Shown here one piece after another: positions 3,087 through 58,599 of a stretch of 64,000 bases of DNA. The stretch lies in the sequence record OR896820.1. One strand, given 5' to 3'. The notes under the pieces were generated by a model that saw nothing but the letters and a program-made list of their open reading frames with translations, did not search any database and had not been told where the DNA came from. Both the position numbers and the translations under genes were made by a program. The first letter of the stretch is position 1. Every line of letters begins with the position of its first letter. The DNA comes from Escherchia phage Stokescottia.

Positions 3087-3574
3087 TTGATTATAATGGT
3101 CTAAAGACCATTTTTGGTGAAAAACTGCCAGAATCTCATATCTTCTTTGCTACGGTTGCTGCGCATAAATATGTTCCTAGCTATGCTTTTCTGCGTAGAG
3201 AACTAGGACTTTCATCTGCGCATACTAACCGTAAAGTATGGAAGAAATTTGTAGAGGCATATGGTAAAGCAGTTCCTCCTGCTCCGCCTGCTCCGCCCTT
3301 AACTCTTTCTAAAGATTTAGCTGCTAGCATGTCCGTTGAAGAGGGAGCAGCATTAACACTTTCTGTTACTGCAACCGGCGGCACTGGTCCTTATACTTAC
3401 GCATGGACTAAAGATGGTTCTCCTATTCCAGATGCTTCAGGAGCTACCTATACTAAGTCTGCAGCAGCTACTGATGATTCTGGGGTCTATAAAGTAACGG
3501 TTACTGATAGCAAGAAAGTTAGTAAACCTTCTACTGCATGCACAGTAACGGTTAATCCCGGTGTTGGAGGCTAA
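3083..3574 (+). CDS. Capsid decoration protein (pb10-like) with C-terminal Ig-like domain
   Basis: 163 aa; Pro/Ala linker 'PPAPPAPP' followed by an Ig-like segment ending 'TVTVNPG'; sits between portal and protease. Confidence 0.65.
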   Translation: MIDYNGLKTIFGEKLPESHIFFATVAAHKYVPSYAFLRRELGLSSAHTNRKVWKKFVEAYGKAVPPAPPAPPLTLSKDLAASMSVEEGAALTLSVTATGGTGPYTYAWTKDGSPIPDASGATYTKSAAATDDSGVYKVTVTDSKKVSKPSTACTVTVNPGVGG

Positions 3575-37673: not shown

Positions 37674-38441
37674 TTATTCAGCAGCCGCAGCTTTTGCATC
37701 CAGTTTAGCACGCTTAGCGGCACCATCATAGTCCTTAGCAACCAGACCACGACGAGACAGCATAGATTTAACACCACGCTCAGACTTACCAGTTTTCTCA
37801 GCGATCTCAGCAACAGTCATGTTAACCAGATCTAGACCTTCTAACAGATCTTCACGAGTTTTAGCACTTGAAGTTTCCTGTACCGGCATAGCAGCAATAC
37901 GACCTTCACGAAGCAGGCTCAGAGCTTTACCACGGATCTGCTTAATATTGCGACCGAAGTGAGCAGCGATAGCTTCAATAGTAGCACCAGCAACAACCTG
38001 ATTAACAAAATCAGTTTCTTCATCCGGAGTGAAGGAACGAACAGCAGCAGCTTTTTCAGTTGGTTTAACAGAAGCGGTCATTTCCAGACTCAGAATCTTA
38101 CCTTGTACCTGCTTAGCACCGAACTGACCACCAGCTACAGCAGCAGCGATTTCAGCATAGGTATACTGACCAGCATGAGCATTCAGGAAATCAACCAGTT
38201 CAGCTTCCTGCTCAGGAGTCCACGGGGATTTCTGTACTTCGTTAGCTTTCTGTACTTCAAAACCTTCTTTACGCAGTTTAGAGCCAACAGAGCGAGCGGT
38301 AACGTCTTTGCCAGTTTCAGCGGCCAGTTCAGCAGCGATAGCAGCTACTTGTTCTTGAGAGATTACAGCAACACCCAGAGCAGTGGCTTTTGCTTTCAGA
38401 GACTCGGTTACACCTTCTACGTTCCAGTTCAGTTTAGACAT
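37674..38441 (-). CDS. DNA-binding protein with four tandem HTH-like repeats (possibly T5 D5-like)
   Basis: 255 aa; four repeats of roughly 'IAxxxGxxxxxVxxKxLxLxREG'; biased high-expression codon usage. Confidence 0.4.
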   Translation of the reverse strand: MSKLNWNVEGVTESLKAKATALGVAVISQEQVAAIAAELAAETGKDVTARSVGSKLRKEGFEVQKANEVQKSPWTPEQEAELVDFLNAHAGQYTYAEIAAAVAGGQFGAKQVQGKILSLEMTASVKPTEKAAAVRSFTPDEETDFVNQVVAGATIEAIAAHFGRNIKQIRGKALSLLREGRIAAMPVQETSSAKTREDLLEGLDLVNMTVAEIAEKTGKSERGVKSMLSRRGLVAKDYDGAAKRAKLDAKAAAAE

Positions 38442-42961: not shown

Positions 42962-43204
42962 TTACGATTCCTTGAGCAAAGAAGCAAGTTCAGCATAGAC
43001 TTTATCTAACTCAAAGCCGATGCGAAGAGACACGTTTGTTTTCCGTTGTTTAAGTAACCACTCGGATATGTTAGGGATGCCAGCTAATCTATGCGGTACC
43101 ACCCTACATAGCTTTTCCGAAGTGTCGTAAACAGGAACTTTACGTTCTTTTACTGGGAACTTCCTTGTTTCCCATTTTTTATTCTTCACTGTCATTTCTA
43201 GCAC
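42962..43204 (-). CDS. Hypothetical protein
   Basis: 80-aa ORF. Confidence 0.25.
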   Translation of the reverse strand: MLEMTVKNKKWETRKFPVKERKVPVYDTSEKLCRVVPHRLAGIPNISEWLLKQRKTNVSLRIGFELDKVYAELASLLKES

Positions 43205-46046
43205 CTAGCTCTGCCATTGCTTCATCATGCATATGTTTCTCCTCATCAGTCATAAACTTATACGGGATTGGCATACACTCGATTTTACAATAGGTTCTGT
43301 ACCAGTCTACAATATTTTCAGTGTTCATATCCTTACCAATACCCATCATACCAAGATACATTCTGGCGTATTTTGGGTTAGCACTCTGGCCTGTTTTAAG
43401 GAAGAAATCTTTCTTCTTACCTTTCAGAGCTTCTATGAATGGTTTGATAGTGACATTTGAACACTTCTTAATATCTTCCCAGAACATCTCGTGCATTTTA
43501 TGGAAGAATGCCGCTCGATCATTCGGTTTATCCTTGATATACTGTTCAACATGCTCAACTGTTACATCTTTAATAGACTCAAGATGATAATAGCGAACAA
43601 GAAGTAGTTTAGCTTCATACGCATCTGCATGGCGTGGAGCACAATAATCAGGAGTTGAATACAAAATAGCTTTGATTCGCTCTTCCGTATACTCTTTTCC
43701 TGCACCTTCGATAGTTCCCCAGCTTTCACTGAAAATATCAATAGTTGCACCCTGATCAAGCAAGTAATAACGTAAAGTACTAGTATAATTCCTAGACTCC
43801 AGCTCCCTGCGACGTGCGTATAATTGCTGTGCTAACTCCAGCCAACCTTCATCAATGTTATATTGCTCAGAACCTGCGGAGAACCCACTCGTAGATTTAT
43901 CAATAAAATAATAAATGTTCTGAGCGCCACGGTCGCGCCTGATTGCTTGGAAACGCATGTTTGGCGCTTGGTTTGAGGTTCTAGTAATAACGAATACGTT
44001 ATCAAAGTAGTTAAAGTCAACACCACTTGTTACGGATGGACTACATAATAAGCAATCAATTTGTTGATCAATTAGCTCATTAGTTGTGTAATCCAGAATA
44101 CGTCTAATATCCACATCAGACGTAGAGTTTGAGTGGATTTCCTTAACTAACGCACCCGTATTACGACGCAGAGCCATACCCTTCTCATTCAGTTCATCCG
44201 GCCCACAGTCAGATACTAGGATAGATTTCTCCCCCATCTCTAGAGAAGTCTGAAGTGCAACCCAAATACTGGATTCATCCGGGAACTCATAAGCATGAGC
44301 TTTTGATAGCATTTTACGGTGATGATTATAAAATGCAACCGGTTTATCAAACTCAATCAAAGAACCATATGCTTCAATGGTTTCTGCACTAATATCCCCA
44401 TCAGATAATATAATGATTTTTGCAGTTGCAAGAATATCCCGAAGAACCTGAATACATTCACGACGTTGTTTAACAACCGGGGCGAATAATAGGTCATTCA
44501 TTACAGCATCACATTCATCGATAAAGATTGCATCAATTTGACCAATAAAACTCTTGAACTTATGCAAAGAATGTATAGTTGTGGACATACGGTCAATAGC
44601 GCCACGCTTAAAATTAAGCATATCTACAGACTTATCATATTGTCCTGCACTAAATTTCTTAGCATTTGAAGATACCAGTGCTCGAGTATTGGTAATTGCT
44701 AAGAAATTACCTTTAATAACTCCTGAATCTAACCAACGCACAACCGCTGTAGTTTTACCTGTACCTAGACTTGCTTTTACAAAAGTCATATAACCTTCTG
44801 GTGGTACAGTATTTAATTTCAAGAAGTTATCAGTTTCTAGAGAATTAGTTTCTAGCTTTTTAAGTGGAATACCTTTTAAAACATCAGGTATATCACGTTT
44901 AGAATTATTAACAAACGCTTTCAGAGCCTGTTTACGACCGTTATTAAAGTAATCTTGAATATTACGACTATTATCTTTAGTTGCAATATATTCTGATAAG
45001 GCTGGGCGGATTTCTTTTTCTAGCCATGCAAAATCAACACCATCCTCTAAAGCTCTGTGATAGAGTTTAGGAATAATACGTAGATACACTCCATCCTCAG
45101 CTTCTTCTAGTTCGCTGATAGTTTCCTCTACTTTATCAGAGGCAGCTTTTTTACCTTTAATTTGGTCGAGTAAAGAGTAAAACTCCTCCTTAAACTCACC
45201 TCTAGTTGTTTCATAGTCAACCAGATTATTAGGTAAATTTACTTTAGAACCCTTAACAAATACCAGACGTGAAGCACCCTCCGCTTTAAACGGATCTACT
45301 ATACCATCGGTAAATAACGGATCTGCAAAATAATGGAGCTGTACGGAAGAGTAATAAGCTAAGTCGGCAATATCAAAGCCATACTTTTGTCTACTACTTT
45401 CGTTGATAGATGTAAATAAGAATTTGATTTGACCCTGAGTTACTTTAACATTAGATTCTAGTATTAAGTGCATTCGGATACCTGGTTTTAGCCCAGCCGA
45501 AGACGATGCATGAGCGATAAACCCTGCATCAAGAGGAAACATATCCTCACTAATACTATTTAACATTCTAATAATATGTCTAGCCATGCCAACAAGATCA
45601 AACTTGTTACAACCACCTGTATCTACAATACCATCCACATCCATTGCAATTATATGGCTTGGGTTAGATACATTAAAGTTGCCCTTCTTACGCCGCACAT
45701 TATTTTTAGGTGCAAGACATCGACCTCGTACCGCAACGATATGAGGGTCAGACGTTAAACGTCTCATAAGAGGAAGCATTTCTACTAGAGTTTGCGGATC
45801 AACTTCATCAATTACATCAAACTTGAAGGGCATTGAAGCTGGTTTACCTTCAGGATGCTTTGAGGAGAATCTTTTAGCAAAAAGATAGTCTTCTGCTTTA
45901 ACTTCTCGCCAATTGCCTGTGGCTAAATCGCGATGAAATCCTGCATGACCTTGTAGGATTGAGAACACAACAATACTCCTGTGTTGGAAATGAAATAAGT
46001 TTTCTTTAGGACTATTCAGAAAGAATAGAACAACTGTTACTGTCAA
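43179..46046 (-). CDS. Large P-loop ATPase / putative SF2 helicase, possible replication initiation protein (start uncertain; the track uses TTG)
   Basis: Walker A 'SLGTGKTT', Walker B 'IFIDECD'; first ATG with any RBS is about 70 codons inside the ORF. Confidence 0.5.
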   Translation of the reverse strand: MTVTVVLFFLNSPKENLFHFQHRSIVVFSILQGHAGFHRDLATGNWREVKAEDYLFAKRFSSKHPEGKPASMPFKFDVIDEVDPQTLVEMLPLMRRLTSDPHIVAVRGRCLAPKNNVRRKKGNFNVSNPSHIIAMDVDGIVDTGGCNKFDLVGMARHIIRMLNSISEDMFPLDAGFIAHASSSAGLKPGIRMHLILESNVKVTQGQIKFLFTSINESSRQKYGFDIADLAYYSSVQLHYFADPLFTDGIVDPFKAEGASRLVFVKGSKVNLPNNLVDYETTRGEFKEEFYSLLDQIKGKKAASDKVEETISELEEAEDGVYLRIIPKLYHRALEDGVDFAWLEKEIRPALSEYIATKDNSRNIQDYFNNGRKQALKAFVNNSKRDIPDVLKGIPLKKLETNSLETDNFLKLNTVPPEGYMTFVKASLGTGKTTAVVRWLDSGVIKGNFLAITNTRALVSSNAKKFSAGQYDKSVDMLNFKRGAIDRMSTTIHSLHKFKSFIGQIDAIFIDECDAVMNDLLFAPVVKQRRECIQVLRDILATAKIIILSDGDISAETIEAYGSLIEFDKPVAFYNHHRKMLSKAHAYEFPDESSIWVALQTSLEMGEKSILVSDCGPDELNEKGMALRRNTGALVKEIHSNSTSDVDIRRILDYTTNELIDQQIDCLLCSPSVTSGVDFNYFDNVFVITRTSNQAPNMRFQAIRRDRGAQNIYYFIDKSTSGFSAGSEQYNIDEGWLELAQQLYARRRELESRNYTSTLRYYLLDQGATIDIFSESWGTIEGAGKEYTEERIKAILYSTPDYCAPRHADAYEAKLLLVRYYHLESIKDVTVEHVEQYIKDKPNDRAAFFHKMHEMFWEDIKKCSNVTIKPFIEALKGKKKDFFLKTGQSANPKYARMYLGMMGIGKDMNTENIVDWYRTYCKIECMPIPYKFMTDEEKHMHDEAMAELGARNDSEE

Positions 46047-46503
46047 TTTCTCAACAAATTAATTGCAAATACTGAAGTGGGGTGGCAACTTCCACTTTCA
46101 CGCTGCGCTGCTGCTTTGCTATACCGCACAAATCCTTGAGGATGGCCGCTAAGCCAGATTTGCTCACCTAATGCTTCATATACTAGCTCATACTAGATGC
46201 AATATAACTTACAGAATCACGTCTCGGAGTTTTTCACTCCTCCCGTCTCACTTCACAACCACCTCTATCTAGGTTGCTTCGAGGCCTTACCAGGGTTCCT
46301 ACGGGACGCAGATCGCTAAGTATTCTATTAACTATTTGTTTAAAAACCAACACGTAACAGTTAAAACAACCCTTAATGGGGCAGCCTAACTGTTCCGTAT
46401 CGCGGATTGTAAACAAGAAAAATTAGCAAAATCAATTTTTACTAATGTCTCTCATTTATGGGAATATTATACTATAAAATAATACTCCCTTGCAAATGAA
46501 ATT

Positions 46504-47019
46504 TTACTGAATTGATTCCCTACCATATAATTGGCCCCTAAACATCTTGGCCATAGAACATGCAACTTCATAGTTATCATATGTTCCTTTAACTACTCGT
46601 TTACGATTAATAGTAAATACTACTTGCCAGTTCTTACTACCAGAAGGGTAAACATGCATTCCTTTCTTATATTTGGTATTTCTTAGATTACCAGTTACTG
46701 TCTGATCCCTAAGATTTTCAATACGATCATCGCCTTTTATAGTGTTCTCATGATCTACCAAATCAGGTAAGTATCCATGATGCATTAAGAAGATAGCTCT
46801 GTGTCGGAGCATAGTTCTACTCCCTAGAGAAATACGGTAATAACCATTCCCCGTTGAAACACAACATTCCTTGCCTGCATTTCTTCCTGTAGTTCTAAAT
46901 AATTTTCCATCTTCATATCGGAAATTATCTAAAAGTTCTTGTTGTGTGAGCGACATCTTTACCTCCAATACATATATTATTACATAATCCATCCAATTTG
47001 TCAATGACAATTTATTCAT
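46504..47019 (-). CDS. HNH homing endonuclease
   Basis: 171 aa; HNH core 'VDHENTIKGDDRIENLR' followed by an AP2-like DNA-binding segment. Confidence 0.6.
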   Translation of the reverse strand: MNKLSLTNWMDYVIIYVLEVKMSLTQQELLDNFRYEDGKLFRTTGRNAGKECCVSTGNGYYRISLGSRTMLRHRAIFLMHHGYLPDLVDHENTIKGDDRIENLRDQTVTGNLRNTKYKKGMHVYPSGSKNWQVVFTINRKRVVKGTYDNYEVACSMAKMFRGQLYGRESIQ

Positions 47020-47098
47020 ACTGTCAATTAACTGGAAAGATTAGGTAATAATCCGAGCACTAATAGCCCGGATTATAGAGTTCAGCTAATAAAAATCA

Positions 47099-47488
47099 TT
47101 AGTCACTTAACCCCGGAACATAGATCCCAACACGGTTTAATTGTTCTTTAGCTTCTTTGAGTATATCTGGAGTGTACTCCCAAATATCATCTTCCACCTG
47201 TAAAAGATGGGGCGAACAACCGTCATCAGGCACACGACATATGGCCAAACCACGTGGATGGAACAAAGAGAAATTTAGGGCAACAATTAAACCCATAGCA
47301 GACAATTCATTCCAATCCAATTCCCATTCCCCGGCGTATCCAGACAGGAAAATGCCAATGCATGGATCATCTATTTGCTGCTCCGGAAAAGTGAAGGAGG
47401 CTTGTCTTACCCCCAACCAACGTTGTAGCAGCTTCTCCGCACGTTTCACCAAACTAGGGTCAATCTGACGCCAATATACTTGTTCCAT
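47099..47488 (-). CDS. Hypothetical protein, tandem paralog A
   Basis: 129 aa; shares 'PCIGI', 'MGL..ALN..LF.P' and 'PGL' anchors with the adjacent ORF. Confidence 0.35.
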   Translation of the reverse strand: MEQVYWRQIDPSLVKRAEKLLQRWLGVRQASFTFPEQQIDDPCIGIFLSGYAGEWELDWNELSAMGLIVALNFSLFHPRGLAICRVPDDGCSPHLLQVEDDIWEYTPDILKEAKEQLNRVGIYVPGLSD

Positions 47489-58245: not shown

Positions 58246-58599
58246 ATGTTTACAATATTATTATTTGTTATATTCTTCCTGAAACATTTTATGGCTGATT
58301 ATCCCCTCCAAACTCCATACATGTTAAGGAAGACTCACAAAATAGGATGGAAACTTCCATTACTAACCCATTCTCTAGTACATGCTGGACTAACCTTTAT
58401 AATTCTTACTATGTTCACATCACTAGGAATGGCTATAACTTTAGCTATAATGGAATTAATCCTACACTTTATCATAGATTACTGGAAAGCACAACGCTGT
58501 AAATACGATATAAGTGATTCCAAGTTTTGGATAGCTTTAGGATTTGATCAGTTACTCCATTACTTAACCTATGCTCTCATAATCTTGATTATAATTTAA
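58246..58599 (+). CDS. Small hydrophobic membrane protein
   Basis: 117 aa, AT-rich, several hydrophobic helices. Confidence 0.3.
   Translation: MFTILLFVIFFLKHFMADYPLQTPYMLRKTHKIGWKLPLLTHSLVHAGLTFIILTMFTSLGMAITLAIMELILHFIIDYWKAQRCKYDISDSKFWIALGFDQLLHYLTYALIILIII

What the first reader, a model, noticed from the sequence alone, without database searches (positions are those of the whole stretch)
46047..46503. Non-coding gap of about 450 bp between the HNH endonuclease and the large ATPase gene
The gap has no convincing ORF, is locally GC-richer and lies just downstream of a TTGCAA-N18-TATAAT promoter on the minus strand. It could encode a structured RNA or mark a remnant of a homing-endonuclease insertion. 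The downstream ATPase has only a TTG start with no RBS, so its true 5' end is also unresolved.
Basis: seen in the sequence. Interest (0 to 1): 0.4.

Follow-up and report, generated by a model that had tools for sequence, protein, structure and literature searches.

The report
Conserved structured leader RNA before T5 helicase
The gap is a ~490-nt, highly folded non-coding RNA transcribed from an early promoter directly upstream of the replication helicase gene D2 in T5-like phages; its fold is kept by compensatory mutations, it matches no described RNA family, and its function is unknown.

Summary
The window is a T5-like phage (Tequintavirus) and all genes here are on the minus strand. The gap is real and larger than reported, at 45969-46503. 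The "large ATPase" is the T5 D2 helicase ("replication origin binding protein"). It starts at GTG 45968 behind an AGGAG site conserved in 40 relatives, not at the TTG.

The TTGCAA-N18-TATAAT promoter (46495-46466) is real. The HNH gene is an insertion upstream of it, and HNH-less relatives including T5 keep the same gap. So the gap is not an insertion scar.

The transcribed 488 nt (46453-45966) form a 5' hairpin, a 30-40 bp long-range stem and a ~215-nt multi-helix core. Compensatory changes support the fold: 6 pairs within type A, 12 within type B, and 22 of 38 across types A, C and D. Slid controls gave 0-1.

Two allotypes exist, A (this window) and B (T5, Eps7). Their central 300 nt are ~44% identical, but length and helix positions match. 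A covariance model built without type B or the Klebsiella type finds both at the homologous place.

There is no Rfam, tRNA, E. coli or plasmid match, no conserved ORF, and no paper found among those searched. This is most likely a new structured leader RNA functionally tied to D2. Its mechanism (cis control or processing, origin transcript, or a free ncRNA) is unresolved.

The parts
46466..46495 (-). Sigma-70 promoter of the leader RNA. The -35 is TTGCAA (46495-46490) and the -10 is TATAAT (46471-46466), followed by ATT (TATAATATT). The transcription start is inferred near A46459.
   Evidence: Promoter scan. The homologous site is annotated as a promoter in T5 NC_005859. TTGC..N17/18..TATAAT is conserved in all types. 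ATATT in the discriminator is the signature of T5 early promoters (PMC7472727). The start site is inferred, not mapped.
45966..46453 (-). Conserved structured leader RNA, 488 nt from the conserved GAGAG to the GTG start codon of D2 (type A allotype).
   Evidence: Present at this place in 445 phage records. Minimum free energy -134.3 kcal/mol, z = -2.9. 158 consensus pairs, 29 of them G-U in this sequence. No Rfam match.
46415..46453 (-). H1: a 5'-terminal hairpin (GAGAGA/UUUCUU plus AUUAGUAAAA/UUUUGCUAAU).
   Evidence: The hairpin is kept with different sequences in the Pectobacterium and Klebsiella phages.
46378..46401 (-). J1: the conserved stretch GAUACGGAACAGUUAGGCUGCCCC between H1 and the long stem.
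   Evidence: Nearly invariant in types A-D and recognisable in E. The pattern ATACRGAACAGTNNGGCTGC occurs exactly once per T5-like contig (32 of 32).
46319..46363 (-). P1 5' arm of the long-range stem.
   Evidence: Pairs with 46031-46073: 39 inter-arm pairs, 7 of them G-U, z = -5.0. The equivalent stem has 30-40 bp in types B, C and D, with unrelated sequences. In most type B phages the arm base reads AACUAUUAC/GUAAUAGUU against type A AACUGUUAC/GUAACAGUU, a G-C to A-U compensatory change; T5 itself keeps the G as a G-U pair.
46031..46073 (-). P1 3' arm of the long-range stem.
46100..46316 (-). GC-rich multi-helix core: P2 (46311-46306/46108-46103), P3 with hairpins P3a and P3b, P4 hairpin, joining strand GAGACGUG (46225-46218), and P5 with P5a, P5b and P5c.
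   Evidence: Helix coordinates are. Compensatory pairs occur in P2, P3, P4 and the P5 extension within type A, and in P2, P3b, P5, P5a and P5b within type B. 22 of 38 pairs are compensatory across types A, C and D.
46129..46162 (-). P5b/P5c module: the P5b helix (46162-46156/46135-46129) encloses the invariant hairpin GGCUUAGCGGCC (46155-46144).
   Evidence: The flanking helix is present with seven unrelated sequences in groups A-G. 9 of 11 pairs are compensatory. Model R1 gives a single significant hit in the 64-kb window, here, at E = 3.7e-13; the window sequence is one of its training rows, and the next hit scores E = 0.78.
46075..46097 (-). P6 hairpin (AAGUGG/CCACUU) with the loop motif GUUGCCACC.
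   Evidence: Compensatory changes within type A (U-A to G-C) and within type B (two pairs). The loop motif is shared with the Pectobacterium and Klebsiella phages.
46012..46028 (-). H7 hairpin (CUAUUC/GAAUAG) between the long stem and the ribosome-binding site.
   Evidence: Invariant in types A and B, so it is uninformative for covariation.
45976..45980 (-). Shine-Dalgarno AGGAG of D2.
   Evidence: Conserved in 40 relatives.
43179..45968 (-). D2 bipolar SF2 helicase ('replication origin binding protein'), 929 aa, with true start at GTG 45968.
   Evidence: D2 biochemistry and the no-DNA-synthesis phenotype of amber mutants are in PMC3632103.
46504..46956 (-). HNH homing-type endonuclease gene. 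It is an insertion and not part of the RNA.
   Evidence: PF13392 match. Absent from T5, Eps7 and DT571/2. The cassette lies between a diverged copy of the ancestral promoter (47004-46976) and position +1 of the RNA, and carries the second promoter copy.

Best explanation
SHOWN. The gap encodes a long, highly structured non-coding RNA on the minus strand. It is made from a conserved early-type sigma-70 promoter and is contiguous with the D2 helicase gene, so it is the D2 5' leader. Its parts, in order, are: a 5'-terminal hairpin; a conserved single-stranded stretch; a 30-40 bp irregular long-range stem (P1) that holds a ~215-nt GC-rich core of two three-way junctions (P2-P5c); hairpin P6, which lies between the 3' strands of P2 and P1; then a short AT-rich spacer with one more hairpin and the D2 ribosome-binding site. 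The fold is under purifying selection. It is maintained by compensatory substitutions. It is shared by two allotypes with about 44% identity in the central 300 nt (A in this window, B in T5 and Eps7). Recognisable versions exist in the Pectobacterium and Klebsiella phages, and the P5b/P5c module also occurs in the Proteus phages and in one further lineage.

INFERRED. Adjacency to D2 is kept in every lineage while the upstream neighbours change. I therefore think the RNA works together with D2, most likely as a cis-acting leader that sets how much D2 (the presumed replication-initiator helicase) is made. P1 is long enough to be an RNase III substrate. Cleavage there would excise the core and leave a D2 mRNA with a short leader that begins near hairpin H7. 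The 5' hairpin would protect the primary transcript. What the core senses or binds is unknown.
For: Promoter: and PMC7472727.

Same gap in HNH-less relatives and across the family.

Covariation: type A has 6 pairs changed on both sides and about 18 one-sided G-U-type changes. Type B has 12 pairs changed on both sides, 99.7% of cells paired, 0-1 such pairs when partners are slid by 1-3 columns, and 0 of 500 shuffles reaching the observed values. The P5b/P5c module has 9 of 11 compensatory pairs across seven lineages. The P5-P6 domain has 22 of 38 across types A, C and D.

Helices sit at the same coordinates in A and B despite ~44% identity. Their predicted structures share 34 pairs, against 3.1 +/- 3.9 for shuffled controls.

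Model R2, trained without B or E sequences, finds full-length matches at the homologous site in E (4.6e-6) and B (2.8e-4 to 7e-3).

Strand: 29 of 158 pairs are G-U, which would be C-A mismatches on the other strand. The minus strand folds at -152.9 kcal/mol against -122.5 for the plus strand.

Selection: between T5 and an Epseptimavirus the RNA is 86-99% identical, while the genes upstream of it are 58-83% identical and D2 is 70-97%.

P1 has 30-40 bp with z of -4.7 or lower in four lineages.

No conserved ORF.
Against: There are no transcript data, so the start site, 3' end, processing and stability are all unmeasured.

No expression platform was found. No terminator is present. The one predicted helix that would mask the start codon (RNA 43-57 with 478-488) is not conserved in types C-E. 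This weakens a simple riboswitch or translational-control model.

Proteus phages carry a perfect consensus promoter between the RNA and D2, so there D2 need not depend on the leader.

D2 does not obviously co-vary with the RNA allotype beyond linkage.

Thermodynamic z-scores are modest (-2.9 here; -1.7 and -1.05 for the Proteus and Vibrio leaders).

The RNAalifold structures were derived from the same alignments on which their pairs were counted.
Confidence: 0.55

Rival explanations
1. Origin-of-replication transcript. The strong promoter and folded RNA would act as in ColE1 RNA II or the T4 oriF/oriG R-loop origins. The transcript would hybridise to or open the DNA next to the initiator helicase gene, priming replication or helping D2 load. 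The RNA fold would control that step.
For: The RNA is always next to the gene for the presumed initiator D2. D2 amber mutants make no DNA, and the T5 origins are undefined (PMC3632103). The locus lies at ~59.5 kb of the 121.75-kb T5 genome, roughly at its centre. In the Proteus phage D2 has its own promoter, so the upstream RNA may have a role other than as a leader. Cassette-like allotypes recall the specificity types of replicon control RNAs.
Against: Nothing links this DNA to initiation. No iterons or repeated boxes were found, only weak two-copy repeats. No antisense promoter lies inside the RNA. The conserved feature is RNA pairing with many G-U pairs, not DNA sequence. D2 does not co-vary with allotype.
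Confidence: 0.2
2. A free-standing, trans-acting stable ncRNA. The core would be cut out of the primary transcript at P1 by RNase III, as rRNA is from its precursor. It would then act on a host or phage factor, for example as a decoy or sponge for a host nuclease, an RNA-binding protein or a defence sensor. Its linkage to D2 would be only transcriptional.
For: A 30-40 bp closing stem is typical of excision sites. The core is large and has conserved loops: CUUAGCGG, GUUGCCACC and GAGAAGUG. Whole-core replacement between allotypes, with the fold kept, would fit an arms race. Vibrio-phage leaders show the same pattern of conserved ends and a replaced core. The Proteus phage has a separate D2 promoter.
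Against: No terminator or other defined 3' end exists before D2. Strict adjacency to D2 over deep divergence is not needed for a trans-acting RNA. There is no evidence of accumulation or of a partner.
Confidence: 0.18
3. Debris of the HNH homing-endonuclease insertion, or a degenerate group I intron that once carried it.
For: An HNH gene lies immediately upstream. The first ~50 bp of the gap belong to its cassette.
Against: The same RNA is present in T5, Eps7 and many other phages without the HNH gene. There is no group I intron or any other Rfam match at E <= 1. The flanking genes are complete and separate. The HNH ORF lies upstream of the promoter, not inside the RNA.
Confidence: 0.02
4. One or more unannotated small protein genes. 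Some GenBank records do call 'hypothetical proteins' here.
For: Automatic annotation of phage MM-1 places two small CDSs in the region. The window has a 60-aa TTG ORF.
Against: The ORFs differ in frame, strand and position between types. The 60-aa ORF is cut to 21 aa in Eps7. Substitutions follow base pairing, not codon positions.
Confidence: 0.02
5. A DNA-level element, either a cruciform or protein-binding inverted repeats, with no role for the RNA.
For: P1 is also an imperfect inverted repeat in the DNA (I2).
Against: 7-10 of the P1 pairs are G-U in types A and B, and these would be C-A mismatches on the complementary strand. Covariation extends to many short internal helices.
Confidence: 0.03

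Closest known systems
Large orphan structured RNAs of bacteria and phages (GOLLD, ROOL, raiA, OLE; from my own knowledge of the literature)
   Same: A long, multi-junction, GC-enriched RNA in an AT-rich phage genome. It is recognised only by covariation, and its function is unknown.
   Different: No sequence or structure match to any of them (Rfam 15). It is not near the tRNA genes, since ARAGORN finds none in the window. It is fixed in front of one gene, D2, as a leader, and it is enclosed by a 30-40 bp stem.
ColE1 RNA II pre-primer, and the promoter-plus-transcript origins of T4 (oriF, oriG) and T7
   Same: A strong promoter drives a ~0.5-kb non-coding transcript beside replication functions. 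In ColE1 the RNA fold decides function, and sequence types diverge while the fold is kept.
   Different: No evidence of an origin, an RNase H site or a DNA start here. No antisense RNA I-like promoter inside the RNA. The transcript continues into a protein gene.
RNase III processing stems (rRNA precursor stems, T7 early mRNA sites, lambda N leader)
   Same: Long-range pairing of sequences ~250 nt apart forms an irregular helix of 30 bp or more that brackets a folded RNA.
   Different: Cleavage is untested, and no sequence rule was checked.
Riboswitches and other structured 5' leaders, and cis-acting antitermination RNAs (HK022 put, EAR)
   Same: A conserved folded domain sits in the 5' leader of the gene, with invariant unpaired nucleotides at the junctions.
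   Different: It is about two to five times larger than typical aptamers. No terminator or conserved SD-masking alternative helix was found. No ligand or RNA polymerase link is known.
Group I introns carrying homing endonuclease genes (T4 td, nrdB; SPO1; Twort)
   Same: A structured RNA next to an HNH gene in a phage replication or nucleotide-metabolism region.
   Different: It does not interrupt a gene. There is no RF00028 match. The HNH gene is outside the RNA and is optional.

Membership tests
Group I intron with homing endonuclease | Interrupts a host gene, with exons that join into one reading frame or RNA. | tested here: not met
   The upstream gene (DUF7415, 47488-47099) and D2 are complete, separate genes. 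No relative has continuous coding sequence across the site.
Group I intron with homing endonuclease | Conserved catalytic core (P3-P9) detectable with the Rfam RF00028 model. | tested here: not met
   cmscan at E <= 1 returns nothing for the window region or for ten related loci.
Group I intron with homing endonuclease | Endonuclease ORF embedded in a peripheral loop of the RNA. | tested here: not met
   The HNH ORF (46956-46504) lies upstream of the RNA's promoter and is absent from most relatives.
Homing-endonuclease insertion remnant | The sequence is absent from relatives that lack the endonuclease. | tested here: not met
   T5, Eps7 and DT571/2 lack the HNH gene and keep the whole RNA.
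Any Rfam 15 family (4227 models), tRNA or tmRNA | Covariance-model or ARAGORN match. | tested here: not met
   No hit at E <= 1 within the leader. The only hit in all scans is a chance SCARNA7 match at E = 0.78 in a Vibrio phage locus. ARAGORN finds 0 genes in the window.
Conserved structured RNA (generic criterion) | Base pairs maintained by compensatory substitutions beyond what relatedness gives. | tested here: met
   12 pairs changed on both sides against 0-1 in slid controls, and 0 of 500 shuffles reaching the observed values. 6 pairs in type A. 22 of 38 pairs and 9 of 11 pairs across lineages.
Riboswitch / translational-control leader | Expression platform: a terminator, or an alternative helix that masks the SD or start codon. 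| tested here: inconclusive
   No terminator-like site. The predicted 5'-3' helix over the start codon is invariant in types A and B and absent from C-E. The J1/P1a alternative pairing (I4) is not conserved in types C and D.
Riboswitch / translational-control leader | Specific ligand or protein binding that changes expression. | not testable with these tools
   Needs in-line probing, reporter fusions or pull-downs.
RNA-primed / R-loop replication origin (ColE1 RNA II, T4 oriF type) | A promoter directing a non-coding transcript into the origin. | tested here: inconclusive
   The promoter and a ~490-nt non-coding transcript unit are present, but no origin has been mapped.
RNA-primed / R-loop replication origin (ColE1 RNA II, T4 oriF type) | Persistent RNA-DNA hybrid and an RNA-to-DNA transition point. 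| not testable with these tools
   Needs DRIP or 5'-end mapping of nascent DNA.
RNA-primed / R-loop replication origin (ColE1 RNA II, T4 oriF type) | Antisense regulator (RNA I-like) promoter within the primer region (ColE1 type only). | tested here: not met
   The plus-strand promoter-like sites lie only at 46503, 46715 and 46950, outside the RNA.
RNase III processing site | A double-stranded helix of about 20 bp or more. | tested here: met
   P1 has 39 inter-arm pairs here and 30-40 in types B, C and D.
RNase III processing site | Cleavage in vivo that depends on rnc. | not testable with these tools
   Needs Northern blots or 5'/3'-end mapping in wild-type and rnc hosts.

The most novel reading that the evidence does not exclude
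This may be the founding member of a previously undescribed class of large structured phage RNAs, here called the 'D2 leader RNA' of Demerecviridae. It would be built as a cassette: constant 5' and 3' ends with a swappable core that exists in discrete allotypes sharing one fold. It would act in starting phage DNA replication (as an origin transcript or helicase-loading RNA) or as an excised decoy against a host factor, rather than as a passive untranslated region.
Probability: 0.3. Interest if true: 0.8.

Novelty: new member of a known kind. Interest (0 to 1): 0.6.

Why it matters
T5 is a classic model phage, yet its replication origins and the control of its early replication genes are still undefined. 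D2 is the only candidate initiator (PMC3632103).

A ~490-nt RNA sits directly in front of D2 in hundreds of T5-like phages. It is more conserved than the neighbouring proteins within an allotype, and it is replaced wholesale between allotypes. That gives a concrete, testable handle on these open questions. It also adds a large, covariation-supported RNA fold to the short list of big orphan RNAs in phages.

There is a practical consequence too. Many GenBank records mis-annotate this region, either with a TTG-extended D2 start or with small 'hypothetical proteins' inside the RNA.

Tried and rejected
Known-family searches:
- Rfam scans of the window region and ten related loci found nothing.
- ARAGORN found nothing.
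- BLAST of the core against E. coli genomes and plasmids gave no match, so the RNA is not host-derived.

Widening the set of sequences:
Only 9 carried the downstream CUUAGCGG motif at the family spacing, and all 9 are type A or B. The other 17 lack the motif or end before it, so it added little diversity.
- Structure-aware MAFFT (Q-INS-i) is not installed, so cross-type alignments are plain MAFFT and undercount pairs.
- Models R1 and R2 do not detect the Vibrio-phage leaders. R2 also misses the Proteus group and the L039/L040 group. I therefore do not claim homology for those beyond the P5b/P5c module (Proteus, L039/L040) and the shared design (Vibrio).

Structural ideas that did not hold up:
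- A per-helix search at mapped positions gave individually weak p-values for short helices. It was used only to locate helices.
- A 5'-3' closing helix over the start codon is not conserved, so it was rejected.
- A J1/P1a alternative 'switch' helix (I4) is absent in types C and D, so it was rejected.
- A possible GCUAA/UUAGC loop contact between the H1 region and P5c was seen by eye in types A-D but not E. It was not tested.

Other checks:
- Iteron-like direct repeats were not found.
- Literature searches for a T5 ncRNA, leader or origin at this locus found nothing relevant. The Rad anti-retron gene of T5-like phages is a protein elsewhere in the genome.
- The 1976 electron-microscopy paper on T5 origins (PMC515544) is not held.

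Full report
WHAT THE WINDOW IS.
BLAST of 45800-47100 finds 490 phage records. All the best ones are T5-like phages of E. coli and Salmonella (Demerecviridae, Tequintavirus and Epseptimavirus). All genes around the finding are on the minus strand. In transcription order the locus holds:
- a DUF7415 gene (47488-47099);
- an HNH endonuclease gene (46956-46504; PF13392);
- the gap;
- a 929-aa SF2 helicase (PF02399 Herpes_ori_bp).
The helicase is annotated in relatives as 'replication origin binding protein'. In T5 it is gene D2, a bipolar helicase whose amber mutants make no DNA (PMC3632103).

CHECKING THE OBSERVATION.
The gap is real, but its lower edge was misplaced. The ORF that starts at TTG 46046 is a mechanical upstream extension. 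The sequence AGGAG-N7-GTG at 45980-45966 is conserved in 40 related loci, with ATG in the Klebsiella, Pectobacterium and Proteus phages. It is the start annotated in T5, and distant homologues align from residue 1 of that protein. The non-coding stretch is therefore 45969-46503 (535 bp).

GC rises to 0.48 at 46100-46299, against 0.31-0.41 on either side. The promoter TTGCAA-N18-TATAAT is at 46495-46466 on the minus strand. T5 RefSeq annotates a promoter at the homologous position. The -10 context TATAATATT carries the ATATT discriminator reported for T5 early promoters (PMC7472727).

No ORF is conserved. The longest differ in frame, strand and position between sequence types. The 60-aa TTG ORF of the window is only 21 aa in Eps7.

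THE HNH GENE IS AN INSERTION AND THE GAP IS NOT ITS SCAR.
T5, Eps7 and DT571/2 have no HNH gene, yet keep an intergenic region of about 615-715 bp before D2. In T5 it contains a terminator, the promoter and ~470 nt of leader. Gaps of 598-820 bp precede D2 in Pectobacterium, Klebsiella, Proteus and Vibrio Demerecviridae.

I aligned the window with an HNH-less type A relative. The cassette (RBS, HNH ORF and a second promoter copy) sits between a diverged copy of the ancestral promoter (TTGACA-N17-AATAAT, 47004-46976) and position +1 of the leader. Only 46454-46503 of the gap belongs to the cassette.

THE LEADER IS A CONSERVED STRUCTURED RNA.
The gap sequence is found in 445 phage records. Its ends are nearly invariant. 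The central ~300 nt occur in two discrete forms, type A (this window, roughly 160 records) and type B (T5, Eps7, roughly 280 records). The central 300 nt are only ~44% identical between the two forms, yet total length agrees within 2-3 nt.

Between T5 and an Epseptimavirus, both type B, the RNA is 86-99% identical while the genes upstream of it are 58-83% identical and D2 is 70-97%. Between a type A and a type B Tequintavirus, the genes on both sides are mostly 80-97% identical, but the core drops to 32-58%. This pattern indicates purifying selection within a type and cassette-like replacement between types.

RNAalifold on 13 distinct type A sequences gives 158 pairs. Six of them changed on both sides, in P2 (two pairs), P3, P4, the P5 extension and P6. 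There are many G-U to G-C or A-U one-sided changes.

On 18 type B sequences it gives 153 pairs, 12 of them changed on both sides, in P1, P2, P3b, P5, P5a, P5b and P6. Counting on that alignment shows 99.7% of cells paired. It shows 12 double-change pairs against 0-1 when partners are slid by 1-3 columns, and none of 500 shuffles reached the observed values. These within-type alignments are essentially gap-free and so were not fitted to the structure.

THE TWO ALLOTYPES SHARE ONE ARCHITECTURE.
The predicted helices fall at the same coordinates in both types:
- H1: 0-38 in both.
- P1: 90-134/380-422 (A), 90-130/380-420 (B).
- P2: 142-147/345-350 (A), 140-145/344-349 (B).
- P5: 245-256/324-335 (A), 250-255/325-330 (B).
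- P5b/P5c: around 286-324 in both.
- P6: 356-378 (A), 356-377 (B).
- H7: 425-441 (A), 423-439 (B).
Their single-sequence minimum-free-energy structures share 34 pairs in the diverged region, against 3.1 +/- 3.9 (maximum 13) for dinucleotide-shuffled controls.

P2 reads differently in each lineage: CUGCG/CGCAG (A), CUACA/UGUAG (an A variant and both Pectobacterium phages), CUGUG/CACAG (B) and CUAGAA/UUCUAG (Klebsiella phage).

The invariant hairpin G-GCUUAGCGGC-C is flanked by a helix with seven unrelated sequences in seven lineages. A naive MAFFT alignment of it still gives 9 of 11 compensatory pairs. For the P5-P6 domain, types A, C and D give 22 compensatory pairs out of 38.

Covariance model R2 was built from that alignment, with no type B and no Klebsiella sequence in it. 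It finds full-length matches at exactly the homologous place in the Klebsiella phage (E = 4.6e-6) and in type B (2.8e-4 to 7e-3). Model R1, for the P5b/P5c module, gives a single significant hit in the 64-kb window, here; the window sequence is one of its training rows, and the next hit scores E = 0.78.

The long stem P1 has 30-40 pairs in types A, B, C and D, with z-scores from -4.7 to -7.4.

STRAND.
29 of the 158 pairs are G-U in the window sequence. The minus strand also folds better than the plus strand, -152.9 against -122.5 kcal/mol. The promoter, the genes and the wobble pairs all point to a minus-strand RNA.

WHAT IT IS NOT.
- No Rfam 15 family matches at E <= 1 in the window region or in ten related loci.
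- No tRNA or tmRNA is present.
- There is no similarity to E. coli genomes or plasmids.
- It does not interrupt a gene.
- The papers I could search describe no RNA here.

HOW IT MAY WORK (INFERENCE).
The RNA is fixed immediately upstream of D2 in every lineage, although the upstream neighbour changes: a DUF7415 gene, the HNH gene, other small genes, or nrdD in the opposite orientation in a Vibrio phage. That argues for functional coupling with D2.

I rank three models.
1. Cis-acting leader (most likely). It would control or process the D2 message. P1 is a plausible RNase III site. Cleavage there would release the core and leave a short-leader D2 mRNA, while the 5' hairpin stabilises the primary transcript.
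2. Origin transcript. This would resemble ColE1 RNA II or the T4 R-loop origins. It fits the position next to the presumed initiator, near the middle of the T5 genome.
3. Excised trans-acting RNA, acting elsewhere on a host or phage factor.

Against a simple riboswitch, there is no terminator and no conserved SD-masking helix. The perfect consensus promoter between the RNA and D2 in Proteus phages counts against a purely cis role. None of these models can be decided without transcript and genetic data.

LIMITS.
- The transcription start, RNA ends and processing are inferred.
- The consensus structures were predicted from the same alignments on which their pairs were counted. The slid controls and the model trained on other lineages mitigate this but do not remove it.
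- Cross-type alignments are not structure-aware.
- Homology with the Vibrio-phage leaders is not shown. They resemble this RNA only in design: conserved 5' hairpins, a replaced core, and an optional ~95-nt insertion.

VERDICT.
The structured-RNA reading is right and the insertion-scar reading is wrong. The D2 start is resolved. The feature is a well-supported structured leader RNA that I could not find described, in a classic phage family, and its mechanism is open.

Noticed in passing
window 46454-47030 (minus strand); L035:~880-1020: The HNH cassette sits between a diverged copy of the leader's promoter (TTGACA-N17-AATAAT, 47004-46976), which now drives HNH, and position +1 of the leader. 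It carries a second promoter copy (46495-46466). In L035 the HNH-type promoter and a full copy of hairpin H1 are followed by the ordinary promoter and H1, so the start of the leader is duplicated. This looks like homing with co-conversion of flanking sequence.
   Followed up: partly
L005:~1250-1350 (DT571/2), also L019 and L041; L048:~720-815: A ~97-nt insertion lies directly after hairpin H1. It is flanked by a TTTTTCTT direct repeat and is present in both type A (SP3, NR01) and type B (DT571/2) leaders. A Vibrio phage (L048) has a ~95-nt insertion at the equivalent place, and it also begins with TGAAGC. There is no Rfam match and no unusual folding energy. It may be a small mobile insertion or an optional RNA domain.
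   Followed up: partly
L047, L048, L055 versus L051 (Vibrio phage loci, ~650 nt upstream of the D2 homologue): The Vibrio Demerecviridae leaders repeat the same design. The first ~100 nt, with two hairpins, and the last ~50 nt are conserved, but the ~500-nt middle is replaced between phages. Neither covariance model detects them.
   Followed up: partly
L045:1434-1463 and L008/L046 (Proteus phages): A perfect consensus promoter (TTGACA-N17-TATAAT) lies between the ~700-nt structured region and the D2 start. The region also carries a second CCUUAGCC motif just upstream of that promoter. In this lineage the RNA and D2 can be expressed separately.
   Followed up: no
L001 (phage SP15) CDS at 3555; L114 (mar003J3) CDS at 734; L002 (MM-1) CDS 2185-2337 and 2434-2550: Public annotations disagree here. 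MM-1 calls two small hypothetical proteins inside the RNA. T5 RefSeq uses the GTG.
   Followed up: yes
window 46352-46363 and 46387-46398: The J1 segment ACGGAACAGUUA is 92% complementary to the 5' base of P1 (UAACUGUUACGU) (I4). It could therefore compete with formation of P1. The pairing holds in type A and in T5 itself. It is weakened in most type B phages and absent from the Pectobacterium types, so it may be fortuitous.
   Followed up: partly
window 58336-58423 (minus strand); window 37712-37721 (plus strand): There is a weak R2 match at 58336-58423 (12.2 bits, E = 0.049, only 88 nt for a 155-position model) and an exact GCTTAGCGGC at 37712-37721. Both are at chance level and neither was examined further.
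   Followed up: no
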